Assembly (NCBI GenBank): GCA_002245135.1
Contig: NGBS01000305.1
Location: forward strand, 184,517-204,516
DNA: 20,000 nucleotides
Origin: Proteromonas lacertae
Taxonomy: Eukaryota
Reading direction: 5' to 3'
Shown here piece after piece: positions 1 through 20,000 of the stretch. The notes below the pieces were generated by a model that made no database searches, had not been told where the DNA came from, and was given only the letters and a program-made list of their open reading frames with translations. Made by a program: the position numbers and the translations under genes. Positions within the stretch are counted from its first letter, which is position 1. Each line of letters opens with the position of its first letter.

Positions 1-3000
1 TGGTGTAGATGGCCTTGTTATATCTTCTTTAGATGGTATATATAAATAATTAATAATAGATGATTCATTAAAAAACGATCTTGGAATAACAAATGGAATT
101 CATAGAAAGAAAATCATAAATGCCATAACAGAAATAATCCAAACTAATCCAAAACCATCATCAGCATTATCTCCAGTTTTATCTTCCAATAAAATTGCAG
201 AATCTCGTGATGGCAATACTTTCTCCAGAACAACCACCAGCAACGCCAGTAGCAGAATTAAAACCATCAAATACCTTTAAAGAAAAACATATTACATTTA
301 AAGAAAAAGGCCCAAAGAAAGAATCAGATTTTGGATTACAAAGAACTAAATCACTTAGATCCAAAATGAATTACAAATTATTACATAGGAATAGAACTGT
401 AAGAATCTTCGTCTCATCAACTTTCAGAGATTTTGCTTTAGAAAGAGATTATCTATTTCAATTCATCTTCCCTGAGTTAGAAAAAAAGTGTGTAGAAAGG
501 GGTGTATTTTTCATACCCGTAGATTTACGTTGGGGTTTAACTGCCGAAGAAAGTGGTAGTGGAGAAGTTGTGAGATTGTGTTTACAGGAGATCGATGCTT
601 GTAGACCATTCTTTTTAGGAATGTTAGGAGATAGATATGGATGGCATATGCCACCAGGTGGAAAAGATGAATTACTAGAAAAAACAATAAAAATTGGAAC
701 TGTATAAATATATCTATATTATTATTATTATCATTTATTTATTTATAGGATTATTTCCCTTGGGTTGCAGATTATAGTGATAGAAGTGCAACTGAGTTGG
801 AGATACGACATGCTGTATTAAATGATCCTACTTCAATGATTCATCATTATTTCTATTTTAGACATCCAAATTTCCCAGAAGTATTACATATATATTATTA
901 TTTATTATTTATATAGTCTTTACCACCAAATGAAAGATCAATTTATTACAGTGAAACACCTCACGCAGCAAAGTTACAAAAAGCATTGAAAAATGAAATA
1001 AAAGCAGGCAATAGATCCTTCAAGATTAATGGAGAATTATCAAACAGTGGAAGAGTTTGGAGCAAGGGTTTTACAGAACTTTTCAGAGGCAATTGATATA
1101 GAATTCCCTCCAAATACTAATGTATTTTTTATATAATAAAAATTATTAATTATTATTTCTATTAAAATAGTGTTCTGAATTAGATAAAACAAGAGATCAA
1201 CACAAATCATTTGCAGAAACAAGACTTCGTACATTTGTAGGAAAACCAGAACAATATACTTCATTAGATAATGCAATATTAAGAGAATCAAGACCAACTG
1301 TATTAACTGGAGAAAGTGGTGTAGGAAAAACAGCCTTAATAGCCAATTGGATTCAATCATTTAAACGTAAACATAATGAAGTGATTATGAATACAGCATT
1401 ATATTGGTTGTACAGCTGAAAGTATTACAATTAGTAATATAGCTTGGAGAATAATGGCTGAATGTATTGATAAATTATCAATTCAAGTATTTTTATATAT
1501 TTTTATTTTTACATTTTTTCATTTAATTTCTTATTGTTTAGAATTATGAAATTCCATCAGATACAACCAAAAGAATCAATTGTTTAGGAGAATTCCTAGA
1601 AATGGCTGGTGAAAAAGCAGAAAATGAAAAGAAATACATTATCTTAGTCTTAGATGGTCTTCATCAATTAGAGAATACAGATACTGCTACAACATTAAGT
1701 TGGTTACCACGAATATTACATCCAGGAATAAGAATATTATCATCAACATTAGAAGGACCAGCTTTAGTAGCATGGAGAGAAAGAAAGTGGAGAGAACAGA
1801 AACGTATATATTTTCAATATAATAAAAATTGTTATTATTATATAAATAGTTGAACCATTAGATCAAGAATGTCAGAAAGAGATAGTTACAGAATATTTAG
1901 GTAATTATGGTAAGAGATTATCAGATGAACAATTGAATATTGTAATAGAAAAAGATCAAACAAAGAATGCATTATTCTTACAGACTTTATTGAATGAAAT
2001 TAGGACTTTTGGTTCATTTGAATTGTTAGTTACTAAAATACAACATTATTTGGAAGCACAAAAGTATAATTATTTATAAATGAATTATATTATTAAAAAT
2101 AGTACTTATGAATTATTTGGTAAAGTATTGGAAAGATTAGAAGGTGCTTATGGTACAACATTAGTTAAAGACACAATGTGTTTGATCTATTGTTCATATC
2201 CTATTTATTATTAATATTATTATTATATATTTTTATTATTTTCTTTAATTTCTATTTTTTTTTTTTACAAGAGAAGGAATCACTGAAGATGAATTACTTC
2301 GAATCTTACAAATCCCTCGAGCTGGTAACTTCACAGCCTTCCGATTAGCTACACAAGAACATTTATGTAATAGAAGTGCTGGTTTATTAGGTTTCTTCCA
2401 CGATAGTCTGCAACAAGCTGTGAAATATCGATACTTAGAGAATCACAGTGATATTAGTTATTACCATACTGAACTAGCAGAATTCTTCTTAAAGGAAAGT
2501 CAAGATGGTCAAAGAGCTAATCGTCAATCAGTTGAATTACCATATCAACTAGAATACTGTCAAAGATGGAATGAATTATCACGTTATTTATCTAAACTAT
2601 CAAGTTTTAAGATATTAAGTGGTAGTGAGAATGGTAATGATGATTTATGTCATTATTGGAGAAGGTTAATGGAAAGAGGAATTAGTCCAGCTTTGATGTA
2701 TAAAGAAAGCTTATCAGAATATGAAATTAAAGCATCTAATACGTATAAATATATTTTTAATTATTTTATTTATATATTTAAATAGAAGTAATATAGTTCA
2801 ATGGTTAATAAGTTTAGGTGACTTTTTAGAAAATTTATTACTATACAAAGATGCATTGTTGCTGTATGAAAGAGCCTTAGAAATGATGAAAGCTAATGGA
2901 GATAATGAAACACTCGAAATCGGTAGTACTTTAAAAAGAATCGCTAATTTATACAATGCTCAAGGTGATTTAAGTAAAGCAGCTAATCTTTATAAAGAAT

Positions 3001-3851
3001 CACAAAAAGTATTTGAATCAATCAAAGGTGAAACAGATCCTGAAGTTCAAAGAATAATTGGTAATTTAGCCAATATATTAAGAATTCAAGGTAAATTCAG
3101 TGAAGCTTTGCCATTGTATGAAAAAGTAGTTTATATTACTGAAAAAACACTTGGTAAAAATCACATAGATGTAGCAACACATATTAACAATGTCGCTAAT
3201 ATATTACGTGAGTTAGGAAGACATGAAGAAGCGTTAGAATTGTACAAAAAGTCATTAGAAATTACTGAAAAATTCAGAGGTGTAAATCATATAGATTGTG
3301 CTAGAACATTGCACAATATGGGATTGAGTAAACGTAATTTGGGACAACATCAAGAAGCCTTAGAAATGATGGAAAAAGCATTACAAATACTTGAAAAAGG
3401 ATTAGGTAAAGATCATCCAGAAGTTGGTGTTATTGTTGGGAATATTGGTATAACTTATACATTTTTAAAAGAGAATGAAAAGGCGTTACCTTTATTAGAG
3501 AGAAGTTTAGAGATTAATAAGAAGATTTATGGTGATCTACATCCAAAAGTGGCTGGTGCATTGGGTAATTTAGCAAGAATGTATGAAATGTTACAGAAGT
3601 TTGATAAAGCAAAGGAGTTATATATGGAGTGTTTGAATGTTACAGAGAAGACGTTAGGAAGTGACAATCCAAACATGTGTCGTATTCTTGGGAATTTGGG
3701 TAGATTGAATGAAAGAGAGGAGAAATGGAAGGAAGCTATAGAGTATTATGAGAAAGGATATGCGATTGGAGTGAAATGTTTAGGAGATAATCATCGTTTA
3801 GTAGTTGATATTAAAAAAGCTTTAGATTCTTTAAAATTAATATCTAATTAA
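1..3851 (+). CDS. Multi-exon SAM + DUF4062 + NACHT/STAND NTPase + TPR protein (nephrocystin-3/TTC41-like architecture), 5' end outside window
   Basis: Manual splicing gives a SAM-like segment (GVDGLVISSLDDDSLKNDLGITNGIHRKKIINAI, intron 36-59) and DUF4062 motifs (VRIFVSSTFRDF..ERDYL, VDLRWG, CLQEIDACRPFFLGMLGDRYGW, SATELEI). Walker A GESGVGKT lies at 1309-1332 and Walker B is IILVLDGLHQL, followed by kinesin-light-chain-type TPR repeats to TAA 3849-3851. There are apparent +1 frameshifts at ~1000-1030 and ~1390; 176-200 is either a 25-nt intron or another +1 shift. Confidence 0.85.
2196..2268 (+). other. U12-type (minor spliceosome) AT-AC intron, 73 nt
   Basis: Donor is TC|ATATCCTA, branch-site-like TTCTTTAAT is at 2241-2249 and acceptor is TTTTAC|A. 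Removal restores the reading frame C-S-R-E-G-I-T-E-D-E-L. There is no GT donor at this junction. Confidence 0.85.
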
Positions 3852-4393
3852 TTAAAGAATAACTTTGTTATTATAAATTAAAATGATGTTCAATGTGTTT
3901 TTTTTTTAAATGAAAATAATTGAAACGAATATAATTTTTAATATAAAATTGGTGTTTCATAATTTTCATCAAAATTTAAATCATTCATATTTTCTAAATG
4001 AATGGCTTAGTTAATTCACTGATATAATATTCTAGTTTATTTGTAAGTAAAATTATAGTTTATAGGAATGTAATATATAAAATCCAGTGTTTGGTGGTTT
4101 TACTCATACAACAACAGAATGAGTATAATATGTGAGTAGATGATGTAAGTAGAATATGATAGAATAATATGATAGAATAATTCTTCACAGTTATTTGGAA
4201 TTTGCTGAATTTATACTTAGAGAGTTTAATAATGAATTGTTGTTGTTTAGTGGTGTATAGAACGTGTGGTGATATAATAATCTTTATTCCTAAAAGTGAA
4301 ATTATTCTCAACTTCGCTAGTTTTTTGTGAGAAAGTTCTTATCTTCTTCTTCAAGCAATAGTAACAACATTTTATTATTCTGAACTAGTATAA

Positions 4394-6920
4394 ATGAATA
4401 ATAAATTGTCTCTTGGATTATTTGTAATTGTTTTTATTGCATTTAGCTATGCTCAACCCAAAAAATCTTTAGCAATTGAAAAAATATGGAAGTTTGAAGG
4501 AGATACTATTGGAATCAATGGATTTAAAACATTTAATGGATATAACTATATATCTACCTCAACTGCTTCTGATGTTGAATTTGAGAATTACGGTGATAGA
4601 TCTTCCTCAGTATTCAAAATCCCTGAGTATATTTATATGCATTTTTATATAATACTATTAGTTCAATTAAAACTGGTATGTCAAACATTAATCTTCAAAA
4701 ATTTCTTGCTTCCAATTTCACTGAAAGATGGTCTAAAGTGATTGGCGGATTAGGATCAGATATAGTAAATGATTTTGCACTTAATGAATTCGGAGATGCA
4801 ATAATTGCAGGAAAATTCCAGAATCTTCTTCAATTAGGTGATTTTTACATCGGAAGTGGTCAAGGCAATTTAGCAAGTGGATTTGTAGCATTTGTAAGTG
4901 GTGGAGATGGTGAAATAAAATGGGGTGAACCAATCTATGGATTTAGTGATTATAAATCTGTTATATATCATGCACAAGATAAAACATTAGTAGCAGTTGG
5001 ATGGCATATTGGTGAATTAACTGTGATTGGAAGTAAAAAAGAAGTAGCAGCTCAATATTTACTTCCATCATTAGATCAAGATACATTTATTGTTAAATAT
5101 TCAACTGAAGGTGAATTATTATGGGCTAAGAGTTTAACAGGTGAAGGAAATCAAGTAATAGAGAAAGTAATAGATAATGGAGGTGATATCTATGTAATTG
5201 GTACATTTGAGAAAGAAATTAAAGCTGATAACAAAGTGTTATATACTTCAAATGGTGGTAAAGATGTATTTGTTGCAAAGTATGGAAATGAGGGTGTTTT
5301 AGTGTGGTTGAAACAATTTGGTAGTAAAAGTGATGATACTGCAGGAGTATATATATATTATTTATTTAATAATTATTGTTTATAGACTATATTTTTCCAA
5401 AAAGATAAGTTATATATTTCATTTACTATCAAGTATATACATTTTTTTTGTTTTTATATAATATTCTTTTATTAGTGATGTATTAGCATTAGCATTTAAC
5501 GCTACAACCCATACATTAAAACCAGGTGTTGTATTATTAGAAATAGATACAACTGGTTTACCAGTTTGGGTTAGAAATATGGAAGGAGATGTAAAAACAA
5601 ATGAAATGGTGTTTGATGCTACAAGTATTTATTTATAATATTATTATTTTATCATTTAGAATATTTCTTTTTAAGTGGTACATTTTTAAAGAATGTCACC
5701 TTCCAATCTGTTAAATTAGATGGTTGTAAGAGTGAACATGGTTGTTTCTACCTTGCTACTTTTGATTTGAATGGAGGACTAGTTCAATTTGTGAATTTGT
5801 TCTCAATGACAAGTTCTACTACGTTATTAGAAACTCGTATATATATATATTAATTAATATTTTATAGATATTACAATTGATGGTAAAACAACTTATTTAA
5901 CTATCTCACATAATGGTGAAGTAGAAATAACTCCATCAGAGAAATTTGGTTCATTAGCCAAGTTAAATTCAACTGTTTTAAATAGTGTTATTCATAATGC
6001 AATCAGTCATATTATTACATTGAAAGATGAAGGTATTTATAATTATTATATTAATATATATGTATGTATATATAGATGTTTCACCTCCAGTTATTACCAA
6101 TATGACAGATTTAACAAAAATAGTAAACCAATTTTCCGATTTGAGATTACCTGTTGAATTTACCAGTAATCCATTCCCAATAGTTGAATGGTTTAAAGAT
6201 GGGAAATTATTAGCTAATCAAACAAACATTCCTCTTCTTATAAAGAAAGTAAAAGAAAGTGATGCTGGTAAATATATTGTTAAATTAACCAACTCACAAG
6301 GAACTGTGCAATCTGCTCCAATTGATGTACAAGTATCAGCTGTCCCACCATCAGTTGTATTACCAGAAAAGAAATATTTATTTGGTCAAGTCGATCATAG
6401 TCGATTATTTGATATTAGCATTGATTATGTTGATGATAAATCAAATGTAAAATTAACAGTAAAATCAAATGATACTTCAATCATTGATGAATCTTCTTAT
6501 TCTGTATTAGGTAAGAAAGATAAAAGAGCAATTACAATATTCCCATCAGGTAAATCAGGAAATGTAGAATTAGAATTAGAATCAAGTGATGGTACTTTAA
6601 CCAACAAAACCAATATGGTATTATATATATATGATGCAAAAGCCAAAACACCCAGTCTTGATAAAGAATGTGAAGATAAGAAGATGGCTGTTTTAGATTA
6701 TGTTTATTTCATTGGTGGAGGTATTGTTGGTGTAATATTGATTGAAGTTGTTGTTATTGTTGTGATGAAGAGTTATTATAGCAATAGAAATATGCATTTA
6801 AGTGTTTGTCATGTTCAAGATAGATCAACAACAACAAGAACTACAACAACTCCTACAAATAGTCATAAAAAAGAGAATTATGGAACTGTTACTACTGAAT
6901 TATCTCCAAATGGAGTATAA
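4394..6920 (+). CDS. Type I membrane/surface protein: signal peptide, SBBP-like beta-propeller repeats, Cys-less Ig domain, second Ig/cadherin-like domain, TM helix, short Thr-rich tail
   Basis: Hydrophobic N-terminus MNNKLSLGLFVIVFIAFSYA. Repeats DTFIVKYSTEGELLWAKSL and DVFVAKYGNEGVLVWLKQFG. Ig motif VEWFKDGK..DAGKYIVKLTNSQG. TM segment YVYFIGGGIVGVILIEVVVIVVM. Six GT-AG introns splice into one continuous frame. Confidence 0.8.
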
Positions 6921-7032
6921 ATAATAAATATCTTTCTATTATAATTTCATTTCATTTTTTTTCAATAATAAAAACACATTCTATTAAATATTATTTAATA
7001 AATTATATAAAATCACAAATTTATAATATCTT

Positions 7033-9062
7033 TCACATCCATAATATATAATTACTCATATACTTAATAAACATCACAATATACTCAATTACCACTTCCA
7101 CAGAAATGCTAAAGGTTGTATCAATCTCAATTAATTGTTTGTATAAAAGAATAGCTAATTCAGTAAGTCCTTCTATTATTAATAAATAAATAAAAAGAGT
7201 ATAAAAATACGATTTAAAGATTTCTGCAGTAATGGGAATAAGTTGTTTAACTTAATTGATTTGTTAAAACAATACAAAATATATTGTTTTATATCTCTAA
7301 GTTTCATCTTGTCACATATGTTATAAAACTCATACAATGTAAATATGTCATTTTTATACTATCAAAATTATATTAATAATGAGATTAATACCTTATTCAT
7401 CAGACTTGCATCTTTATAACACTGTAAAAATGTCTTTAAAATACTAATATCAATATCAGTATAAAAAGATGCAATTTTCTTTGAATGAGTTAATTTACAC
7501 AACTTTTCCTTATTAAATTTCACTATTTTACTACTTTTAATATCAGGTCCAATTCTTATTTCATAATTTGCATTCTTTAATAAATCTTGACATTCATATA
7601 AACCACAATCACTATTTACATCATTATCACTTAATAACAACACTGACTGTAAGAGACTCATGACGAATGGAGTATCTAATGAATTGCTTATCAGTAATTG
7701 ATATATTATTCCATTCTCTTTAGAATATAACATTCTATCAGAATCTTTCAATAGTGGAGATAAATATATTAATGATATAAAACAGTTGTAAAGTCTTCCT
7801 TCATCATTCTTACAGAGATTTGGTATTTGTATCAAATAATCAAACTATAAAAGAGTATAGAATAGTCGAAACAAAAATACATTGTAGTTAATAATGAATA
7901 TTTGAATAATTAATACACAAAATTGATTTATATCTTCATCATTAATATTCTTCTTATGAAGCAAATCTAATAATTGAATAATTATTCCTGATGACAAAAG
8001 ATAATTGTATTTCTTTTCATTAGCAAGTATATTAATCAATCTTTGACTTTCCAATCTGATTTCTTCATTCTTTGATGTAAAATATACTGATATTTTTGTG
8101 TGTAATAAACATGTAAAGTTAAATATATATTCACAACATTTCTTTAAATAAATATAAGTGTTTAACAAGAAGTTTAGCAGATGTAAAGATGAAGCAATAA
8201 TTATATCATTATTGGAATGTGTTGTTACTTCTATTATTAGTGAAATAATTGATTCTATTTCTTTTTGTACTTTTAATGTTGAGATTTGATTCTCAATTAT
8301 TCTTAGCGAATAACTTAATGTATTTATCTCTTCATTACTAATATCATTATTTAGACATTCTAAAGAATAATAATAATAATAATAACAAATATATACTTTT
8401 AGCATAATTCATTTATATTATCAATCAATATTCTATATAACGCATTAACATTAGTTAGCAATTCTGAACCATCTTTTCTTTTACTTACATGAGAGAGTAA
8501 TTTAAATGACTTTTCACTGTGATAAGATATATCTTTAACTATTATCATTATATTATCTGTTGTTAAATATGGTATATAGATTATTAAATTATCAAGAATT
8601 GGATATATTGTTTTGTAATAAGAGGTATAATGATTAAATAGATAGGAGTAAAGAGATGCTGGAATACGTTCTGCAAATAGCTGTTTTGATGTTTCAGGTA
8701 TGTTTGTAGTTATTAAAAGAGTATTGACAACACATTGCCTCTAATTAGAATAAGATAATATAAGAATATAGATATACTTGAATTTGTTCATTATAACTAT
8801 TTATAGATGATAATAAAGGAAGCCAGTTGTTATTCTCTAACTCAATTAACTAAATATTAAAAGAATTGATTTATACATTTTTTATTAACTGTTTATTTTG
8901 TAAAAGATAACAGCTACACGAAAAAAACGTTCTAACAGCTATCAGATCATTTTTGTTCTTCATAAGCATTAAAACATTCCTAGATCACATAATACTAGAT
9001 AAACAATACTTAAAATCAGAGCAAAATGAGTTAACATTCTTTTGAAGATCGTTTTTACTCAT
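7033..9062 (-). CDS. Multi-exon hypothetical alpha-helical (ARM/HEAT-like) protein, possibly with a degenerate C-terminal BTB-like region
   Basis: ATG at 9062 and GTAT..TAG introns join ORFs 7845-8405 and 7368-7835 to a TGA at 7033-7035. Leu/Ile-rich helical pattern. One apparent +1 frameshift near 8400-8413. The domain calls are weak. Confidence 0.5.
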
Positions 9063-9188
9063 TTTTAACTGTATGGTGTATGAAAATATTCATTCCCCTC
9101 ATTTTTAATTTTTCAAAAAATAACATATAAAAAGATTGAATATAGTATTTTTTTAATGAGCATTAATATAATAAATATTGTTAGAAGT

Positions 9189-9794
9189 TTACTCCTGTGA
9201 ATCATCATCATCATCATCGTCATATTCGTAATTGTAGTTTACTTTCTTGCCTCTTGTTCTACGTCCTCTTCTACCACCATAATCATCTTCTTCATCAAAT
9301 GCTCCAGCATCTAAATCACTGTCATCACTGTCATCTTCTTCTCCTGAGAAACCATTTAAGAAATCATTGTACGACTTTGAAATAAGTGTCAATGGATCAG
9401 CCTTGTTCTTCTTATCGAAGTAAAATACGTGATTCTCGTTATCTCCATCAGTGCCTAAGAATATAAAGTTACCATTTACATCTTCTGCTATAATGAGAAG
9501 ACCTATGAATTTTGTTCTTTCCTCTTCGCTAAATTTACTTTTTATCAATGTTTGGACATTCTTCTGAGCTTGAACAATGTCAATATCAGAATCACCTCCA
9601 GCACTATAAAACAAAGCGACTTTAACAGTTCTATTATTCAAAGTAAATGTACTTGGACGAGGATGACCTCCATTGTGTCTCACAAGGAATGTTCTGTATT
9701 GAGGAGGAAATGTCAATTCTAGTTTGCTTTCAATTCTACTGAGACTACGATCAGTGACTTTAGTCCACGATTCGGTAAATTTCATACGATTCAT
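9189..9794 (-). CDS. SMI1/KNR4 (SUKH superfamily) domain protein with acidic/basic C-terminal tail
   Basis: Canonical SUKH motifs IESKLELTFPPQYRTFLVRHNGG, IIAEDVNGNFIFL, VFYFD and ISKSYNDFLNG, followed by a D/E-rich tail containing RRGRRTRGKKVNY. A short upstream exon is possible but unresolved. Confidence 0.85.
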   Translation of the reverse strand: MNRMKFTESWTKVTDRSLSRIESKLELTFPPQYRTFLVRHNGGHPRPSTFTLNNRTVKVALFYSAGGDSDIDIVQAQKNVQTLIKSKFSEEERTKFIGLLIIAEDVNGNFIFLGTDGDNENHVFYFDKKNKADPLTLISKSYNDFLNGFSGEEDDSDDSDLDAGAFDEEDDYGGRRGRRTRGKKVNYNYEYDDDDDDDSQE

Positions 9795-10407
9795 TTCTAC
9801 AATATAAATATGAGAGGGATGTTAGTGAATAAATAGATCAGTAACAAAGAGAGAAAAAAATGGTACAATAGGAAGTATTGAGCATTTGAAAGCTAAAAAT
9901 AGTGTTATAATGCAAGTATAATAGATTCATACTCTAAACTAAAAATAAAAGCGCCAAACCAATAGCCTATCAAATTGAGTCATTTTTTGAATTTTGTTTG
10001 ATTTAAGAAATATTCTTGTGTTATTATTGATCAGTGGCTTCTTTTAACTACTATAAAATTATTTTTTAATAATAAATTACATCTGCCATAACTATTTCGC
10101 TTGATTTTAACTATTTGATAATCTGACTTTGTTTTTTGAGCATTTCATTATTCTTAAAATTATTGATAGCACCATTGAAAAGCATTTAGACGCATAAAAT
10201 AAGAGTTCTATAAAATTGTGCTTATACTCAAGCATTGACTAAAAAATGTTGTATAAGTCTTTGTTTTCATTATTCTATCACATGAACAACATATTACCCC
10301 TAACCACATACATTAACAGGTTTGAGACTTTCATAAAAAATCTATTTTTCCTTATTTCTTACCTCACAATCTACATATAAAACTAAATTTAATATATAAG
10401 AGCTATA

Positions 10408-11109
10408 ATGGCAACTGTAGTAGGTCAAGCAGCAACTGTTTCATCATGGGCTTTATTTTTTGCACCAATGTATTTAATTATTGATTATTTGATTTATAGA
10501 CCAAGTATTAAGGAAATTAACAGCAAAAAGAATATCGGGAAATATTCATATCTTCCTTTTTTCTCAATTGTGTTTAATTGCACAGCTTGGGTGATTTATG
10601 GCTACTCGAAGATGGATAAGGCAGTAATATACACCAATCTACCAGGAATATTCCTTGGAATGATTTATTCTTATGTTTATTACAGATATACTCCTGACAA
10701 GTCTAAATTCTCAAAATTACACAAAGGTTATTTAACACTAACACTATTACTAGGTTTATCATACTTTTTATTACCAACAAACATAAGTCAAATGTTTTTG
10801 GGATTAGTCGCTAATTGTGGCTCAATCAGTGTATTTGGAGCACCATTATCCAAATTAGTATACTTATATATAATTCATATAAAATAGAAAGATGTTGTTC
10901 TCTCAAAATCAACAGAAGGAATGCCTTTGTGTATGTGTATATGTAATATGATCGTTTCAACATTATGGACGCTGTATGGTCATATTGTAAAAGATTGGTT
11001 TATTATATTCCCAAATTTATGTGGAATGATTTTAGCAATGATTCAGCTGTTGTTGTTTGTTATTTTTCCAGTCAGAGCACCACGATATGTTAAGGTTGAT
11101 AATGTTTAA
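10408..11109 (+). CDS. SWEET/MtN3 sugar transporter (3 exons; introns 10470-10499 and 10858-10887)
   Basis: Two MtN3 repeats: YSYLPFF..NCTAWVIYG..TNLPG and GAPL..KSTEGMP..STLWTLYG..D.FIIFPNLCG..QLLLF..P. Confidence 0.92.
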
Positions 11110-11255
11110 TTTTTTAGCTAGTTAAACATTTCATATTATCAATTTTAAATATAATTTGAAAGATTTATGAGTTTTTTTTTATTATTATTCTAAAACCAAT
11201 ACACAACATGAAATATAAATAAACGAGTATGTGTTATATATAAAAGAATACTCTC

Positions 11256-11997
11256 TTAATGTTTCATATTGTTCGCATTATTTGATTTATCGTCATCTTC
11301 AAGTTCTTTATATCCTTTTGGATAAATGCAAAACAAAAATATTTGCACAAGTGATATTAAAATGCCAATAGCATTTGGAAATGTAACTAAGAAGTTTTTC
11401 ATCAAAATTCCATAAAATGTCCAAGCTAAACTTGAGAACATACTACAACATGTCATCAGTAATGGAACTCCTTCCATTGACTTGTTTCTAATCACATCTC
11501 TCTATAATTTAATATAAACACAGGTAATAATCATACTATTTTAATTATAGGTGCTGAGTATATGCTAATAGTGCCAATATTACTGCAAATCCCATAAAAT
11601 AAACTAACTGATGAAAAATCGGCATAAAAGTACAAGAGAAACAACAATATGCAGAACAATACGAAAGTAGCATTTATTTTCCATATATAACTTCTATCTT
11701 TTGCATACAACGCATAACAAAAACAAAATATAATTCCTAAATAACTCCCAGGTAGGTTCGTGGTCATTATTGTGAAATTGTTGAGAGTATATCCATATAA
11801 AAACCATGATGTACTATTTATTATTGAAATAAAGTATGTTAAATATGAATATTGGCCAACATCTTTATTTTTCACTATTTCCCTTATTGAAGTACTAATA
11901 ACAAAATTAATTATTTTTATGAATTATACATCGGACCTAAATAAATAAGCCATGTAGAAACAAGTGCTACTTTCCCAACAAAATCAATAAACAACAT
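11256..11997 (-). CDS. SWEET/MtN3 sugar transporter paralog (3 exons)
   Basis: MLFIDFVGKVALVSTWLIYLGP|ITSIREIVKNKDVGQYSYL..SWFLYGY..TNLPG..SAPI..KSMEGVP..AWTFYG..FPNAIG..Q. Intron positions match those of the + strand copy. Confidence 0.92.
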
Positions 11998-12087
11998 TAT
12001 TTTAAATCTAAAATGAAAAATTCATTCTCAAAATAGATATTATTTCCATCAAAAAACACAACAAATACGCTTAAAATATACATTTAT

Positions 12088-13416
12088 TTAAGCAACTAAT
12101 TCTGATGATATTAAGTCAACCTTCTTATTATCTCTCTTTTCCAATCTGAACATCACATCTATCAAAATAGTCATAAACAATCCAATAAAAGTCGATGCAT
12201 ATGATAATATATAAGCATATTGATCACCAAATGAATCATTTACAACTCCAAAAGCAAACATTGCCAATATCTGAATAACAGTTTGAAATGGAATAATAAT
12301 CCCTGTTGCAGTTTCAGAATCTTCTTTAAAATAATAAATTACTAATCCCATCACAGCAGGCCAAAAGGTTGAAACAAAGAATCCAGAAGCAGCTATAAAT
12401 CCTAAAGCAACATTGGCATTACTCAACGAAAATCCAAATACTGCGCAAATAATAGTACCAAATGCTAATGCATACAATGTATTAACTGGACCCAGTTTAT
12501 CTGACACAATTCCATTTATTAATCTTGAAAATGTATAAATCATAAGAAAATATGTGAAAAAATTACTTGCAGCATCATTACTAACATGTAAATACTTTGT
12601 TGCATATAACACACCCCAACTGCTAGTTGATCTTTCAGTGATTGTGTAAAATGCTAAAATCAATACAATTGTCCATACTCTGACATTCTTAAATAACTCC
12701 ATGGGTGATGCTTTATCTGGTGATGGAGTAACATATTTATTTTTATCATTATCATTGTTAATATCAGTTATTTCAAAGTGTGACATTGATATTCTTTCTT
12801 TTGGCTTTTCTTCATACGGTAAATTCGTTTTTGGATCTCTATCATAAGGGATAAATATACTTGGAATAAAGAATATTACAACAGGAATAATTGATAATAA
12901 GTAGTGTTCTTTATAACCAAAATTTGGATAAGCATGTTGAAAGAGTTGAATATAGGGAGGAGCAATAAAGGATCCTACTCCATAAAAGAAGACTAATAAA
13001 CAAAACATCATTCCTACATGCTTATCGAATGTTATTGAACCTAATGAATTACCTGATAAATCTAATGCTCCTAATCCAGCTGATGCTAAGAATAAGAAGA
13101 ATAGAATCAACCATAAACTGTCAGAGAGGTATATTCCAACAAAACCAATCAAGGGACCGATGTAACCAATTAAGAATACCCATCTATAACCCCACTTATA
13201 AATAATGGTTGCTGACAACATTGAAAAAATCATATATCCAACGAGCATTGCATTAGGCAAATAACTGTACACTTCATAAGAAATATCCTTCTCTTCTTTG
13301 ATCATGGGAAGTAATATCCCTTTAGCATTATCAATGAACCCTTCAGCTACTAAAGCTCCAAAACAAGCAAAACACTTGAGCAAATATACTCTGTTTCCCC
13401 AAATATCGATTTTCAT
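12088..13416 (-). CDS. Major facilitator superfamily transporter (FucP/TsgA/Bsc6-like), intron-less
   Basis: About 12 hydrophobic segments in two halves, with motifs YKWGYR, FFYGVGSFIAP, ERSTSSWGVLY and SRLINGIVSDKLG. First ATG is at 13416. Confidence 0.9.
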   Translation of the reverse strand: MKIDIWGNRVYLLKCFACFGALVAEGFIDNAKGILLPMIKEEKDISYEVYSYLPNAMLVGYMIFSMLSATIIYKWGYRWVFLIGYIGPLIGFVGIYLSDSLWLILFFLFLASAGLGALDLSGNSLGSITFDKHVGMMFCLLVFFYGVGSFIAPPYIQLFQHAYPNFGYKEHYLLSIIPVVIFFIPSIFIPYDRDPKTNLPYEEKPKERISMSHFEITDINNDNDKNKYVTPSPDKASPMELFKNVRVWTIVLILAFYTITERSTSSWGVLYATKYLHVSNDAASNFFTYFLMIYTFSRLINGIVSDKLGPVNTLYALAFGTIICAVFGFSLSNANVALGFIAASGFFVSTFWPAVMGLVIYYFKEDSETATGIIIPFQTVIQILAMFAFGVVNDSFGDQYAYILSYASTFIGLFMTILIDVMFRLEKRDNKKVDLISSELVA

Positions 13417-13542
13417 TTTTTTGAAACACAATTATTTTTAAAACACAAATAGAATATTATTTTTTGCCACACTTAACAAAAATACATTTATACATATACA
13501 TAGACATAAACATTATATAATTAAAACAACTTTGCATTTCAC

Positions 13543-14540
13543 TTAATTCTTCATCTTTCCATCCAAATACATAAAAAAATTTAATAAAATTGTCATTAAT
13601 AAACCTAAGAATAGCATTGAATAGGAAAGCATATAAGCATATTGATCACCAAAAGAATCATTTACGATTCCCAACGCTGCAGTAACTAATATCTGAGTTA
13701 TAGCTTGCATAGGTAATATCAATGCAGTAACTGATTCGGAATCATTTTTATAATTCTGTACAACCAAACCCATACAACAAGGCCAAAATGTAGATACAAA
13801 ACCACCAGAAGCTGCAAAAAAGTATATTGCAGTAGTACCATGAGGAAATAAAAAGCCTAAAACACAGCAAATAATAGCACAAATTGTCAGAACATAGATC
13901 ATTTTGAAGTAACCGATTCTGTCAGTAATTACACCAGTAAATAACCTTGAAAATGTATAAATAAATAAAAAGGCGGTGAAAAAATTGGAAGCAGTTGATT
14001 CACTTAAATGTAAGTATTTAGTAACATATAACACTCCCCAATTGCTTGTCGATCTTTCAGCTACAGTAAAAAATGATAAAATCAATCCAATATTCCATAC
14101 TCGAGTGTCTTTTAAAACTTCAACAATTGATTTCTTTTTTATTGGTTCAATTTTATCACCTTTATTTCCTGCAATTTCAAACAATGTTGTTGGCTCAATT
14201 TCTTCAGGTATTTCAATATGCGACAAAGAAGCAAAGGAATGAGACAAGGATTTTGATTTTTGAACAGGATACTTCAAATCATTCTCATCTACAGTTAGAA
14301 GAGATTGAGATGTATGTTGTATTAAATAGGGAGGATCTTCTTTATTATATGGAATGAATAACGTTGATAACATTACCAATCCAACAAGAATCAGTAAAAA
14401 TAAGTAGTATTCTCTATAAGTATACGATGGGAATAAATAACGTATTAATTGAATGTATGGTGGTGCAAAAAATGCGCCAACTCCATAACTCATTGCAGAA
14501 AGGCAGTACATTAATCCTACACATCTATTATAAGTTATTG
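13543..14540 (-). pseudogene. Tandem MFS transporter paralog, 5' part cut off by the viral insertion
   Basis: Highly similar to the neighbouring MFS (ERSTSNWGVLYVTKYLH, VNDSFGDQYAY). Homology extends upstream to ITYNRCVGLMYCL (paralog ITFDKHVGMMFCL) and stops abruptly at ~14540, so roughly 125 N-terminal codons are missing. Confidence 0.8.
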
Positions 14541-14561
14541 TATATAATATAAATGCATGAA

Positions 14562-14655
14562 ATCCTCTTTTATAGAGGATCCTCTTCTAAAAGAGGATTT
14601 TTAGATCCTCTCTGAAAGAGGAAAGAGGATTTTTAGATCCTCTTTAAAAGAGGAT
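14562..14655. repeat. Array of four ATCCTCT-(N5-12)-AGAGGAT hairpins at the element terminus
   Basis: ATCCTCT occurs at 14562, 14579, 14605 and 14637, and AGAGGAT ends at 14580, 14598, 14630 and 14655. A 22-nt direct repeat AAAGAGGATTTTTAGATCCTCT is at 14590-14611 and 14622-14643. Confidence 0.9.
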
Positions 14656-14691
14656 ATATGTATAACCGTAAGAATATCACTGTATGTGGGT

Positions 14692-15062
14692 AAACCGTAC
14701 CAGACTATTCTTAGGTGCCTTCTACAGATAAGAATAAGCGATTTGAGTGTGAATTAGTTTTTGGTACGGGTTATACTGGAGCAAGCGGTGAATTTTAAAT
14801 TGTGTATATATTTTAGTGTGTGAATAAATTTATGGGTCAAATTCTATTTTTATATTTTTAATAGTTTTTAGCGTAGGATAGTAGAAATAATGTGTAGAAA
14901 TAGATAAGTAGCTACCTGTTCTACCCCGGCAGGGTAGCTACTTTATAGAATAAGAAATGTATTTCTATGTAAGTAAGTAGCGTGTCCTGTGTAGCCTGAC
15001 TAGGACTTAGTGATTAAATAGTGTGATGGCCAAGCTACAGAATGCGTTCTTACTTTTTTTTT
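14692..15062 (+). other. Structured non-coding segment with three long stem-loops ending in a T9 tract (putative TIR structure or ncRNA)
   Basis: Inverted repeats at 14692-14710/14751-14772, 14906-14916/14933-14943 (perfect 11 bp) and 14973-14995/15034-15053 (with G-U pairs), followed by T9 at 15054-15062. Confidence 0.55.
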
Positions 15063-15296
15063 GGTTATTTTTTTTCATTTATCAATTTATTCATGGATTT
15101 ATATAGTGTAGTTAAAAACATTCAAAAGAATTTAAATAGTATCAAAAATATATATTTAAAGAATTATCTGCAGTATTCTATATTTTTTACTAAATCGAAA
15201 TTCTGACGTGAAACTGTTGTTATAAACAGAAAAAAGAAACAGTTTTGATTTTCCTGAAATTTTAGAAAAACCGTTTTTTATCAAAAAAATATAAAT

Positions 15297-15764
15297 ATGT
15301 GTGCTTCAGTAAACTTTGCTTTCTTTTGTTCATTTAGAAATAATGAAGATTATTTAGATAAGTGTATATGTGGAACATGTAAGTTTTACTTATATTTTAA
15401 CCATAACATAAGTGCAGTTTTAGATAGCCCATTACCTAAGGAAGAGATAAAGTCTTATAATGAATTCTGTGCTATTTGCCATCAAAAGATGTGGACAAAG
15501 TATAGTGATAAGAGATATTATATGATGCTTTTCGATATTAAACCATCAGTAAAACCAAGAGGATTAAATAGACATTATTTTGCAGTGTTTGATAAGTATA
15601 TTGAATGGTTAACACTACCTGAAGGAATGGGAAGTGTTCATTTGAAGAAGAATCCTATGTTGAAACATTATGTAAAGAAGAATTATATATTTGATGATAG
15701 TGATGATGATGAGGAAGAAGAAGTTAAAGGAAACAATGATCAAACTACGATAAACATACTCTAA
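15297..15764 (+). CDS. Viral hypothetical Cys/His-rich (putative Zn-binding) protein with acidic tail
   Basis: Uninterrupted 155-aa ORF in AT-rich DNA with motifs CICGTC, FNH and CAICH, and a DDSDDDEEEE tail. Confidence 0.6.
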   Translation: MCASVNFAFFCSFRNNEDYLDKCICGTCKFYLYFNHNISAVLDSPLPKEEIKSYNEFCAICHQKMWTKYSDKRYYMMLFDIKPSVKPRGLNRHYFAVFDKYIEWLTLPEGMGSVHLKKNPMLKHYVKKNYIFDDSDDDEEEEVKGNNDQTTINIL

Positions 15765-15899
15765 ATTTTAAAACGAATCTTTATCTTAAAATGATTTGGG
15801 ACAGGGTTTAAAAATATGCGTAATTTAATAAAAATCATATAATATAATAAAAATATAATAAATTTTATAATAAACATAATAAAATAATCATAATAAAGA

Positions 15900-16685
15900 T
15901 TAAAATGGTTCTGTAACACCTGTATCCATCCACTCTGTTATAATAACTTGAGGTGGGAATGCTTGATATGAATATGCATCAAGACCTTTTCGTTCTATAT
16001 AAAGATTACATTTATTATTATTATTTCTTAATATAGGCCAAAAACATCCATAATCATTAATTGCAGGTTGTGAAGTTTCATTTATTACACCTTGTATAGG
16101 GAAGTATATTCCATTACTACCATCTACAAAGTATGTTTCTAATAATTTGTTATAATATTGTTGCAATAAATCTTCTTTACCTGGTTCAGCTTTAATAACA
16201 TGATTGTCATCTAGATATAATATAAATCCATAACCATCATCATGATTTTTTAAAACAAGGCCATTATATATTTTGATTCTCATAAAATGTTCAAACATTT
16301 GAATTTTTATAGGTACTTTTACAGTAGATTCATATTGATTGATGGAACCATCTTGAAATATATAGAAATTAACTGACCAATATGTATATTCAGTATGCAA
16401 TAATTTAGGTGATACAGAATTATTAACTATTGTAGTGCTACCTCCAGAGCTATTATTTACAACATTATATATTTCTTGACATTTACCATATATAGTATTT
16501 GTAGTAGTTTTGATATCATTAACAGGTGTAATAATATTATTTATTTGAGTATCAGTATGATTATTAATAGGTTTAACAATAGTATCAGGATCAGTAGGTT
16601 GTATATTTATTTTGTCAGCTATATCTTTAGCAAGCTTATCTGTATCAATATTTATATCTGAAGTATTTCGTTCCCCAATAAACAT
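15900..16685 (-). CDS. Viral hypothetical protein (coiled-coil-like N-terminus, SSGGS linker, beta-rich C-terminal domain); candidate virion fibre/accessory protein
   Basis: Uninterrupted ORF directly downstream of the ATPase. The likely start is MFIGERN at 16685; the ORF track extends it to 16733. Confidence 0.6.
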   Translation of the reverse strand: MFIGERNTSDINIDTDKLAKDIADKINIQPTDPDTIVKPINNHTDTQINNIITPVNDIKTTTNTIYGKCQEIYNVVNNSSGGSTTIVNNSVSPKLLHTEYTYWSVNFYIFQDGSINQYESTVKVPIKIQMFEHFMRIKIYNGLVLKNHDDGYGFILYLDDNHVIKAEPGKEDLLQQYYNKLLETYFVDGSNGIYFPIQGVINETSQPAINDYGCFWPILRNNNNKCNLYIERKGLDAYSYQAFPPQVIITEWMDTGVTEPF

Positions 16686-16729
16686 TTTTTGAATTAATAA
16701 ACAATAAAATAACAAAATTAATAAAAACA

Positions 16730-17490
16730 TCAAGAAACTTCAGAATGATCTTCAATCAAAATATTAAAGTTAGCTCTAAACACTTTTTTAACATTATCAA
16801 TATATAAGAAGTTATATTGTGGCTTAGTAACAGCTAAATATAACTCTTTAAATGTTTCATATTCAGGTATCCATATATTCAATGAGTTGTATAAGTCAAA
16901 CAAATTTCTATTACTCAATCCATAAAATGTTAAACAATAATCTACTTGTGATCTTGCTGAAGGTACTATATCAGTAATATATTGACTACTAATTATAATT
17001 TTTGATTTTAAATGTCTATTTTCTTTCATTAATACTGGTATGATATTAGCTGTTTTCAACTCTAAACTAAGATCATCAAATATTATGATATGTTCTGCAT
17101 ACTCATAATTATCTTTGTTTGTATCATCAATTGATTTCATTAACTTCTCTACCAAATTATCTCCTGAATAAGGTTCAAATAATGAATCGTTTTCATCATA
17201 ACTAATTTCATTATAATCTAATAACTCTTTAATTGAATCATATATCCTATCTTGTTTAATTGTACCTACGAAAAATGTACATGTTGTTTTTTCTTATATT
17301 TTGGATCTATAATATGTCTTAATATATTGTATATCAAAGTAGTTTTCCCACTGTTCTTACGAGCTACAATAAATATATTGCAGAAAGGCTCATTAAAGTA
17401 ATCATATCCCAGAATTTTCTTAGGATCAAAAGACTCACCACCATCAACAGGTTCAATTTGTATATTATTTATTTTTTCAAATTTAAACAT
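16730..17490 (-). CDS. A32-like (FtsK/HerA) DNA packaging ATPase, one frameshift at ~17290
   Basis: Walker A variant IFIVARKNSGKTT, Walker B IIIFDDL and A32 motif ENRHLKSKIIISSQY..IVPSARSQ. Shifting at the A6 run (17287-17292) gives a continuous bridge KTTCTFFVGTIKQDRIYDSIKELL..GDNLVEKLM. Confidence 0.9.
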
Positions 17491-17560
17491 AGTGTGTGTA
17501 TATATATATTATGTAGTGAGAAATCAAAAATAAAAATAGAAGTCAATAATAAAGTGTTAT

Positions 17561-18984
17561 TTATACTACTTTCTCAACACCTCTTGGTCCAATAACTAAT
17601 TGTTTACCTGTAATAATATAGAATTTATGATGAATTGTATAAGTATTTTTTGCAGTATCAAAATCATGATTTGAGCAATCCAAAGTAATTTTTAAATCAC
17701 TTGCTAAGTCTTTACCAGCTCTTAATTTTAACTCAGTTAATCGATCAGTACTGAAATTTAATACATCAAAGAATCTATAAGGGAATGAATATGCTGAACA
17801 TTTTTCATATAATGTATTTTGAATAATATTTCTCATATATTCCCAAGTTTGGTATTTTGCAGGATATAAATAATCAGGAGTATAGACAAAATCATTAATT
17901 TGCCATCTAATTCTATCTTCTTCTTTATCAAAAGGAACTATAGTTCTTATATAAGCATCATTTATGTATGCTCTGTATAATATAAACTTAACATAACTTC
18001 CAATGCTGCTATTAATACTGAAGTTATAGTTAAAAAGTACTATTACCTGGAATAGGATCTTTAGTTATTTGAACTATGTTAAATCAGTAAAGTCAATAGG
18101 ATGATGAGTTGAATAATTGATGGTATTGGCATTGCAAGTTGGATCTTTGTTATAACAAACATAAAGATGAGGATTAACTATTTTCATTCCTAAAAATGCT
18201 TGCCCATTGGTTTATATATTTATCTCCATCATTATGATGAACCCAATTCATTATAGGTGCAAATGTGAATTGTATGTATATTACTTCACCAAAATAAATA
18301 TCATTCTTCAAAGCTAAAATAGTATTGTATATGTCTGCAAAATGAAATCTACACAGTATTTTGACCATGTAATGTATCTGTCATACCATTTTGCATTACA
18401 TAATAATTTTGAACACCTCCACTTGGATTTAATGTATTAGCTGAATGACATAATAAATTTTCACCTATTTTTTGATTTGCAGTATTAAATCCTAAACCAT
18501 CAAATATTTTCTTGTAATAATCTGGTTCTTTTAAATCATAAGGAAATTGATTTGCAATTTCATGAGCTAAATCTCTATATTCATTATAACTAGTATCCAA
18601 ATCACATAGCAAAGTTCCTGTTTTGTTGTATACTTTTAATGTACCAAAATTCATAGTATTCTTCAATGTTAGTTTATCTAAATTATTTGCACTAGTATCT
18701 CTTTTAGGTACAAAAGGCATATCCCAATTACCTGAATCTGCAGCAGCATGAGCTCTAGTTTGACCTGTAGTATAATCTAATATGAATTCAAAATAGCTTT
18801 TTGATAAGTTAACACAATTATCACCAGATATTTCAAATGTAATAGCATCACTGTTTGAATTTAAAGATAAAACAGTCTCATTCCTGCTTTGGTTTGGAGT
18901 AACTAAAATATGGTTGTAAATTGGTATGTAAGCTGGCACAATGCTTTCATGCTTTTGTGAATTAGGTATAGCAGTGATTGACAT
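17561..18984 (-). CDS. Major capsid protein (double jelly-roll, PLV type), about 470 aa when four frameshifts are corrected
   Basis: PLV-MCP-like motifs YNHILVTP..ITFEISG..VNLSKSYFEF, DIYNTILALKNDIYFGEVIYIQFTF, IVNPHLYV and C-terminal ITGKQLVIGPRGV. Located between the minor capsid and ATPase genes. Shifts at ~18360, ~18210, ~18080 and ~18033. Confidence 0.78.
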
Positions 18985-19037
18985 AATTTATGTTATTTTA
19001 AAAGATTAAAAAATACTTAAAAATAGCAAGAAATTTA

Positions 19038-20000
19038 TTAATACAAAATAATCTCAAAATAAATAGGTAAGTTTTTTAAATAAATTGCATAACCATCTGT
19101 TGTGTGACTGATATAGTCATTCGTTGATATTCGTGATATTGCATCTTCTTAGCTGTCCATTCAATTTGTGGATTAGTGAATGTTGGTGTAGTTAGTATTA
19201 AGATCTTTCACAGGTATGTTAGCTAAAACCATTGAATTCTCACCACTATTAACCCAGTCACATCTAATTTGTATGAATGACACCCAAATTAAAGACGGTT
19301 GATTAGGCAATATTTTTGTCATATTCTATATCAATATTATTAAAAAATGCTTCAATTGGAGCTGCTGTATGATAAATATCTAACTTTTTGTTCATCTCAT
19401 CTACACCATATAACTTATAAACTAAGTTAGGGAATTCAATGCTAAAATCTGTGAAATATAATCTACCAAAATGAGTTAAGTATTTGAATTTTAAGTGTAA
19501 TCTATTTTCTGAACTTTCACTAAATTGAAGTATATCTGTTTGATCATCTATTTTACGAAACGGATAGTTTTGTGAAAGATCTTCATCTGGCAATGGTCCT
19601 GCTGCACCTGCTATTTCTGCAAAACTTAACGATAGTAACTTATTACTAAAAAATTCTAATAATTCTTTACCAGTATAATTTCTTTGAGGTATTTTAGCAT
19701 CAATAGTTTTATAATAAGGTCCAAGCTGATTCTCAGGTTTTTCCCATTCTGCTGGATTTGTTTTATCTGGATTTATGCATTCGTAGTAAGTGAAATTAAA
19801 GAGAATATGATCATTTACTTCATCTTGTACTGTATAGAAGTTTTTGGAATAACTGCAGTAATTAAACTCATATATTGATATTTTTCAGTAATAGTTGGAG
19901 TATTAATACATCTAACCCATTTATTAGATAATTTTTCATTATAGTCTGATGTTGTTAAGAACAATGTTCTTCTATTAGCTAATATGTTGTTACTATCTTT
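19038..20000 (-). CDS. Minor capsid (penton) protein, start outside window, four frameshifts
   Basis: Reconstructed motifs MSLITAVIPK(N/T)FYTVQ..N, IDAKIPQRNYTGKELL, FIQIRCDWV..VLANIPV and TDGYAIYLKNLPIYFEIILY* match the Polinton/PLV penton pattern. Shifts at ~19842, ~19315, ~19185 and ~19100. Confidence 0.78.

What the first reader, a model, noticed from the sequence alone, without database searches (positions are those of the whole stretch)
14541..20000. Endogenous Polinton-like virus with a full capsid module, hidden by fragmented ORFs
Seen in sequence: the short minus-strand ORFs rejoin into three intron-less genes, penton, major capsid and A32-like ATPase, followed by two orphan ORFs and a structured terminus. 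This contrasts sharply with the intron-dense host genes. Established: this trio is the morphogenesis module of Polintons, PLVs and virophages. Inference: this is a divergent, possibly undescribed PLV lineage of an AT-rich protist. Its ATPase has the ARKNSGKT Walker A variant and its penton appears to carry an extra loop (YYECINPDKTNPAEWEKPENQLGPY).
Basis: partly seen in the sequence, partly recalled or inferred. Interest (0 to 1): 0.9.

Follow-up and report, generated by a model that had tools for sequence, protein, structure and literature searches.

The report
Polinton-like virus end inside transporter gene
One end of a small DNA virus, with a predicted double-jelly-roll capsid gene, a packaging ATPase and a likely penton, all broken by frameshifts that are probably assembly errors, interrupts a transporter gene of an AT-rich single-celled eukaryote; its capsid family appears already catalogued in a gut protist genome, so it is a further copy of a known but barely described kind.

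Summary
Observation largely confirmed. Intact database relatives show that the minus-strand fragments are one 254-codon A32-like ATPase (1 frameshift; relative 89% identical) and one ~473-codon capsid gene (4 frameshifts, no in-frame stop). The intact relative's model is a double jelly-roll (Foldseek E 3e-12, Z 21.7). The penton is likely, from position, a weak profile match and language-model neighbours, but its fold was not shown. The element ends in a 41-nt palindrome about 10 nt from where a host MFS gene is cut at codon ~125, so it is likely an insertion into an exon. The Walker A variant is a trait of the whole family (31 of 46 hits). 'Undescribed lineage' is overstated: by shared motifs the capsid belongs with an unnamed cluster that Bellas et al. 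2023 listed, 285 hits in Proteromonas lacertae. New here: it is a long-branch relative of a widespread environmental virus group with the gene order protease-penton-capsid-small gene-ATPase, plus polymerase or primase-helicase and integrase. Replication, integration and protease genes, the other end and copy number lie outside the window and could not be tested.

The parts
13543..14547 (-). Host MFS transporter paralog, cut: only the part matching codons 125-426 of its neighbour is present; the likely insertion target
   Evidence: Pfam MFS_1 3e-27; alignment to the paralog at 12088-13416 begins at ~14547, and the missing first 135 codons match nowhere else in the window
14560..14600 (.). 41-nt near-perfect palindrome at the element end, about 10 nt from the host junction
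   Evidence: 14553-14600 folds as one hairpin, -12.5 kcal/mol, z -5.8, 0 of 200 shuffles
14560..14655 (.). Array of short self-complementary repeats (19-nt unit x3, 32-nt unit x2); likely the tip of a terminal inverted repeat
   Evidence: the repeat finder D1, D4, I16, I23; TRF period 32; z -6.2. No partner repeat in the window
14905..14943 (.). Second, GC-richer hairpin in the non-coding end region
   Evidence: 14890-15030 folds at z -3.6, 0 of 200 shuffles
15297..15764 (+). Orphan ORF, 155 aa, Cys/His-rich first half and acidic tail; possibly zinc-binding (inference)
   Evidence: Open frame; zf-HIT only at E 0.24; no PHROG; not in the collection by exact look-up
15900..16682 (-). Orphan ORF, 260 aa, T/S/N/G-rich first third; candidate short fibre (inference from position and composition)
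   Evidence: Open frame; in 11 of 21 related loci with a >=200-aa ORF after the ATPase that ORF looked fibre-like by my reading of start and composition, one with a C1q head below Pfam cut-off; no direct match
16730..17490 (-). A32/FtsK-like genome-packaging ATPase, 254 codons, one frameshift near 17273 in a T run
   Evidence: 46 relatives; alignment; STIV B204 E 0.0014; intact relative P0002 passes Pox_A32 cut-off
17561..18984 (-). Major capsid protein gene, ~473 codons, four frameshifts, no in-frame stop; predicted double jelly-roll
   Evidence: model of intact relative P0047 pLDDT 78.9 matches Sputnik, mavirus, iridovirus and PBCV-1 capsids
19038..20000 (-). Likely penton (minor capsid) gene, ~320 codons in view, about four frameshifts, start just at or beyond the window edge
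   Evidence: Best hit in the window to the penton-like profile of related viruses: 50.9 half-bits against 28.1 +/- 3.1 (max 37.1) in 60 shuffles and 39.5 for the next of 40 bins; Atlas neighbours DUF5901 and Sputnik V18/19 at 0.96-0.97 but low recognition; hhalign probability only ~1%

Best explanation
Bases ~14550-20000 are one end of a small DNA virus, with a predicted double-jelly-roll capsid gene, an A32-like ATPase and a likely penton, that has likely integrated into an exon of a host MFS transporter gene. Shown: the three genes lie head to tail in the order found in related environmental viruses, and the host gene stops beside a terminal palindrome. Inferred mechanism: an element-encoded integrase (rve type or tyrosine recombinase, as in the relatives) inserted the linear genome; on activation it would excise and replicate, most likely primed from the terminal hairpin by a primase-helicase type enzyme or else by a protein-primed polymerase; capsid trimers and penton pentamers would build an icosahedral shell that the ATPase fills with DNA, with the 260-aa ORF as a possible vertex fibre. 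The frameshifts are more likely (about 65%) consensus errors in a many-copy repeat than true decay, so the lineage is probably active or recently so. Whether it needs a giant helper virus is unknown.
For: Capsid fold. ATPase. A profile from independent metagenomic capsids hits three window pieces in order, E 6.6e-9, 1e-7, 1.3e-4 among 543 six-frame pieces; profile-profile 99.8%, E 5e-30. Of 31 related loci holding all three genes, 20 have the window's order and strand, 24 a protease-type gene; pPolB, SF1/SF3 helicases, primases and rve integrases are found among them; one is a circular 18.8-kb contig. Junction. Artefact reading: 7 aligned breaks and no stop although 5.5% of point changes would make a stop; intact relatives at 89% exist; many Proteromonas capsid calls in Table S3 are short, 304-371 aa; PMC10120064 reports such false frameshifts in multi-copy elements.
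Against: No replicase, integrase, protease, second end or target-site duplication is in the window. Penton fold not shown. Only 3 of 7 aligned breaks lie by a run of 4 or more equal bases, against 24% background, so a homopolymer-error signature is weak. No GC step at the boundary. The small gene found between capsid and ATPase in 26 of 31 related loci is absent here (70-nt gap). The link to the published Proteromonas capsid rests on motifs compared by eye, not on a computed alignment.
Confidence: 0.85

Rival explanations
1. The element is a real insertion but a dead fossil: the frameshifts are true mutations and this copy makes no virion proteins.
For: About nine breaks in 2.6 kb and none seen in 5.5 kb of open host stretches; 4 of 7 aligned breaks are not at homopolymers; GC equals the host's.
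Against: No in-frame stop in the aligned capsid, ATPase or penton parts, whereas neutral decay usually brings more substitutions than indels (recalled); ATPase still 89-93% identical to an intact relative; terminus and the outer 1.8 kb of ORFs look intact. The inner region was defined after seeing the breaks, so the P values overstate the case either way.
Confidence: 0.3
2. A free or co-cultured virus, or another copy of the repeat, was wrongly joined to the host contig; the MFS gene is whole in the organism.
For: Multi-copy elements are hard to assemble (PMC10120064); no reads were available to check the junction.
Against: The join falls exactly at a structured terminus rather than inside a gene, as expected of integration; composition matches the host.
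Confidence: 0.08
3. It is a member of Polintoviricetes in the wide sense (Gossevirus, VC35 or Maverick type: protease, pPolB, rve) rather than an unplaced Polinton-like lineage.
For: Related loci mostly carry a protease-type gene (24 of 31; Pfam C48 hit on the one member scanned), which among PLVs is typical of gosseviruses and VC35; Foldseek ranks Sputnik first, as reported for gosseviruses.
Against: The GKS1 example read in the supplement of PMC7805220 has a differently patterned ATPase (APSGSGKT) and a 586-aa capsid unlike this one by eye; Table S4 of PMC10120064 puts the Proteromonas hits in an unnamed cluster, not GKS1 or Mavpol; the second aligner ties PBCV-1 and faustovirus above Sputnik.
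Confidence: 0.4
4. It is a virophage (Virophaviricetes) or a piece of a giant virus.
For: Top Foldseek hits are Sputnik and mavirus capsids; Atlas lists virophage and NCLDV capsid clusters at 0.97.
Against: 7-11% identity only; no virophage or NCLDV capsid Pfam hit in 21 rows; relatives are 10-20-kb compact genomes with their own module.
Confidence: 0.05

Closest known systems
Unnamed endogenous capsid cluster of Proteromonas lacertae in Bellas et al. 2023 (PMC10120064, Tables S3 and S4; cluster 26 by my column count)
   Same: 450-aa fold-confirmed capsid sharing, by eye, the family's motifs in order (NLSKSY, YNKD, FNY.F.INSSIG.Y, W.INDF, FF..LNF); AT-rich protist host; many truncated gene calls.
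   Different: The listed sequence resembles the more distant family members (such as P0051) more than this copy, so this is another subtype; only the capsid was catalogued there. Whether this window comes from that organism was not established.
Environmental virus group recovered here (84 loci) with A[KR]KxSGK ATPase and protease-penton-capsid-small gene-ATPase module
   Same: ATPase 30-36% identical, capsid homologous (hhalign 99.8%), same gene order in 20 of 31 loci with all three genes.
   Different: Capsid only 21-25% identical; the window's family is a separate long branch (8 rows against 30, SH-aLRT 100, unrooted); small intervening gene absent; I could not assign the group to a named class.
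Gosseviruses (GKS1) and VC35 (PMC7805220; bioRxiv 10.64898/2026.06.19.733378)
   Same: Protist viruses with capsid, penton, ATPase and, commonly, a cysteine protease; Sputnik-like capsid model.
Endogenous virophages and PLVs of Halocafeteria seosinensis (bioRxiv 10.64898/2026.07.28.741278)
   Same: Terminal palindromes next to the host junction, proposed there to prime replication and linked to non-pPolB replicases.
   Different: That paper states its PLV capsids cluster apart from those of Proteromonas; here the palindrome is imperfect and repeated.
Maverick-Polintons / adintoviruses (Polintoviricetes)
   Same: Same morphogenesis trio and integrated state.
   Different: Mostly animal hosts, own capsid clade, defined by pPolB plus rve, neither visible here.

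Membership tests
Polinton-like viruses (operational sense) | Double jelly-roll major capsid protein | tested here: met
   Model of intact relative P0047, pLDDT 78.9; Foldseek E 3e-12; Z 21.7, rmsd 3.8 over 343 residues; window pieces 37-61% identical to it. The window's own protein was not folded.
Polinton-like viruses (operational sense) | A32-like packaging ATPase | tested here: met
Polinton-like viruses (operational sense) | Single jelly-roll penton | tested here: inconclusive
   Position and profile score support it, Atlas neighbours are minor capsids; hhalign ~1%; single-sequence model pLDDT 40
Polinton-like viruses (operational sense) | 14-40-kb genome with terminal inverted repeats, replicase and integrase or recombinase | not testable with these tools
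   Window ends in the penton; no genome held. One structured end present; relatives carry such genes
Proteromonas capsid cluster of PMC10120064 | Capsid at >=25% identity over 30% length to cluster members | tested here: inconclusive
   Shared motifs along the visible 400 residues compared by eye; no computed identity
Maverick-Polintons (Polintoviricetes) | pPolB and rve integrase in the element | not testable with these tools
   Outside the window; both occur in some related loci
Maverick-Polintons (Polintoviricetes) | Capsid in the Mavpol clusters | tested here: inconclusive
   Table S4 places the Proteromonas hits outside columns labelled Mavpol by my column count; no reference profile available
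Gossevirus (GKS1) / VC35 | Capsid detected by the GKS1 or VC35 profile | not testable with these tools
   Profiles not held; GKS1 examples look different by eye
Gossevirus (GKS1) / VC35 | Cysteine protease gene | tested here: inconclusive
   None in the window; in relatives it lies upstream of the penton, which here is beyond base 20000
Virophages (Virophaviricetes) | Capsid recognised by virophage capsid profiles | tested here: not met
   0 of 21 rows hit a virophage capsid Pfam at E <= 1; the ICTV marker HMMs were not available

The most novel reading that the evidence does not exclude
This family is a protist-resident offshoot of a widespread, so far unnamed or hostless class-level group of protease-encoding small DNA viruses (possibly VC35); it has hairpin-tipped ends, lives in hundreds of intact copies hidden by assembly errors, and knocks out host genes by exon insertion, giving the first host link and a culturable system for that group.
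Probability: 0.3. Interest if true: 0.6.

Novelty: new member of a known kind. Interest (0 to 1): 0.33.

Why it matters
Endogenous Polinton-like viruses are common in protists and this capsid family seems already listed, so the element alone is not surprising. Its value is modest but real: it ties a catalogued, unplaced capsid cluster to a broad environmental virus group with a conserved gene order, shows a palindromic end like those just proposed to prime replication, and shows an apparent insertion into a host exon. If copies are intact, induction of virions from a gut-type protist becomes testable.

Tried and rejected
No whole genome held, so copy number, the far end and downstream genes were not examined. 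No sequencing run was listed; this is no evidence. Pattern scans with the window ATPase or single relatives found nothing; only the wider alignment did (80 of 180 confirmed metagenome matches kept). No penton homologue among 51 candidates of 106-338 aa. Capsid profile against solved-structure sequences: nothing meaningful. Penton fragment model pLDDT 40 and its fold search, no match at E <= 0.001: uninformative. Plain HMM search of penton pieces against the related penton profile gave no hit until frameshifts were allowed. The complex predictor was not available, so the fibre idea has no structural test. My first idea that the junction was an intron acceptor was dropped when the MFS alignment ran through it. 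A loop-less palindrome scan did not rank the terminus, since its hairpin has bulges; none of 9 whole relative contigs showed inverted ends, one had a 127-nt direct repeat. Our loci were not found by name in Table S4 of PMC7805220, and motifs of the wider group were not found in the held part of the PMC10120064 supplement (cells cut at 400 characters, file cut). Sigma-70 scan irrelevant. No earlier finding by place or sequence. No dedicated paper on Proteromonas PLVs appeared in searches or in the text of the 2026 framework preprint; the library lacks most subscription papers, and bioRxiv supplements (HMM sets, VC35 lists) were closed and may settle the classification.
Full report
Setting. The window is 21-33% GC throughout. 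Bases 1-14500 hold eukaryotic genes: a DUF4062-NTPase-TPR gene and an Ig-domain gene with short AT-rich introns read by eye, an SMI1/KNR4 gene, two SWEET genes and two MFS genes. This fits a compact, AT-rich protist; the organism was not identified and no genome is held.

ATPase. The 187-aa piece found 46 relatives among 105 candidates. P0001 (254 aa) aligns to both window pieces at 93% and 89%, so the two frames are one gene with a single break near 17273. P0002 passes the Pox_A32 cut-off and the best solved match is the STIV packaging ATPase B204. The A[KR]KxSGK[ST] Walker A form occurs in 31 of the 46 hits: a family trait, not a peculiarity. The four closest full-length relatives form a long, supported branch apart from 39 others (43 of 46 rows over 200 aa used, midpoint root).

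Capsid. A search for longer proteins gave one hit among 888 candidates, P0047, 495 aa, which spans all window pieces. It has 17 relatives at E <= 0.001 in 1.84 billion representatives; the 10 of these clusters looked up are held only in Logan assemblies. No Pfam family passes cut-off. Its model (21-row alignment, pLDDT 78.9) matches double jelly-roll capsids: Sputnik E 3e-12, mavirus 8e-12, and PBCV-1 Z 21.7, faustovirus 21.5, with unrelated folds below 7; identities are 7-11%, so the fold does not give the class. A frameshift-tolerant alignment covers 18984-17564 with four shifts and no stop.

Penton. The evidence is weaker. With frameshifts allowed, 19268-19041 is the best match in the window to the ~270-aa gene that precedes the capsid in related viruses (50.9 half-bits; 60 shuffles 28.1 +/- 3.1, max 37.1). 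An X-bridged read-through scores E 2e-4 for the C-terminal block, 0.2-6.7 bits overall against a shuffle maximum of 4.7, and hhalign gives ~1%. Atlas neighbours include DUF5901 and Sputnik V18/19 clusters, with low recognition. That the reference gene is itself a penton rests on position and on likeness by eye to entries labelled mCP in PMC7805220 Table S2. The proposed extra loop sits between two weakly aligned blocks, about 25 residues longer than in the profile. I put the penton at about 80%.

Terminus and junction. The second MFS gene aligns to its neighbour from codon 125 on, starting at ~14547; the missing part is nowhere else in the window. About 10 nt further begins a 41-nt palindrome and an array of self-complementary repeats (z -5.8 to -6.5; flanks -1.3, -1.6). 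This reads as an insertion into an exon. Terminal palindromes next to target duplications, linked to non-pPolB replicases and proposed to prime replication, are described for Halocafeteria elements (10.64898/2026.07.28.741278, passages and section 6 read); an earlier scan note pointed me to that passage.

Relatives. A wider ATPase alignment retrieved 4 viral loci of 236 pattern matches and 80 kept of 180 confirmed metagenome loci; some are near-duplicates. 43 of 84 carry a ~450-aa gene homologous to this capsid family (hhalign 99.8%, 15% identity). Of 31 loci with all three genes, 20 have the window's order, 24 a large basic protein whose one scanned member has a C48 protease domain, and 26 a small gene that the window lacks. 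Among 30 proteins scanned, rve integrases (3), a pPolB, SF1 helicases (3) and primase or SF3 helicases (4) were found. One contig is circular at 18.8 kb. The window's capsid family is a separate long branch from these.

What is known. Table S3 of PMC10120064 lists a 450-aa capsid from Proteromonas lacertae, fold-confirmed against PBCV-1, that shares the family's motifs in order (compared by eye). Table S4 gives 285 hits in that genome, all in one unnamed cluster, about 11% of the genome by the authors' estimate. I read parts 1-2 of 7 of the main text, passages, and these supplement rows. The paper reports false stops and frameshifts in multi-copy elements. Gosseviruses and VC35 are the protease-bearing PLV groups (10.64898/2026.06.19.733378, parts 1-3 of 5 and passages; PMC7805220, passages and three supplement parts); the GKS1 example differs by eye, VC35 could not be checked. 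Replication modules are swapped freely in these viruses (10.64898/2026.10.13.758929, parts 1-3 of 5), so the capsid does not predict the replicase. PMC13215967 and PMC8502044 were seen as passages; the latter reports a virus with unrecognisable virion proteins in Blastocystis data, not compared here.

Intact or dead. For artefact: no stop in the aligned parts though 5.5% of point changes would make one, breaks confined to the inner 2.6 kb (region chosen after the fact), intact close relatives. Against: only 3 of 7 breaks lie at homopolymers, near background. About 65% artefact.

Verdict. A real endogenous Polinton-like-type virus end; a new member of a catalogued but undescribed capsid family; interest 0.33.

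Noticed in passing
window 9192-9797 (-): Intron-less SMI1/KNR4 (SUKH) gene, Pfam E 2.7e-16, with an acidic and Arg-Gly tail; a family typical of bacterial immunity proteins (recalled), possible old transfer.
   Followed up: partly
window 10393-11990: Two SWEET sugar-transporter genes tail to tail (MtN3_slv), next to two tandem MFS genes: a small transporter cluster.
   Followed up: partly
window 138-3851 (+): Multi-exon gene with DUF4062, a P-loop NTPase and a long TPR array, an NLR-like architecture (recalled).
   Followed up: partly
window 4394-6920 (+): Secreted-looking multi-exon protein with an unassigned beta-rich region, an Ig domain and a C-terminal membrane helix.
   Followed up: no
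L002 and L004 (one 31.9-kb viral contig): Two related virus units in one contig, sharing several identical ORFs but with different helicase genes.
   Followed up: no
L014:740-2107 and cluster of 25 loci: The protease of the environmental group is the C-terminal domain of a large basic protein of 376-1343 aa in the loci listed, rather than a stand-alone adenain.
   Followed up: partly
L014:4316-4666 and cluster of 45 loci: A conserved ~130-aa gene with no Pfam match, usually next to capsid or ATPase; looks beta-rich and may be a small structural protein.
   Followed up: no
L001 (18843 nt): Circular, apparently complete genome of the wider group with a primase-helicase and a possible tyrosine recombinase.
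   Followed up: partly
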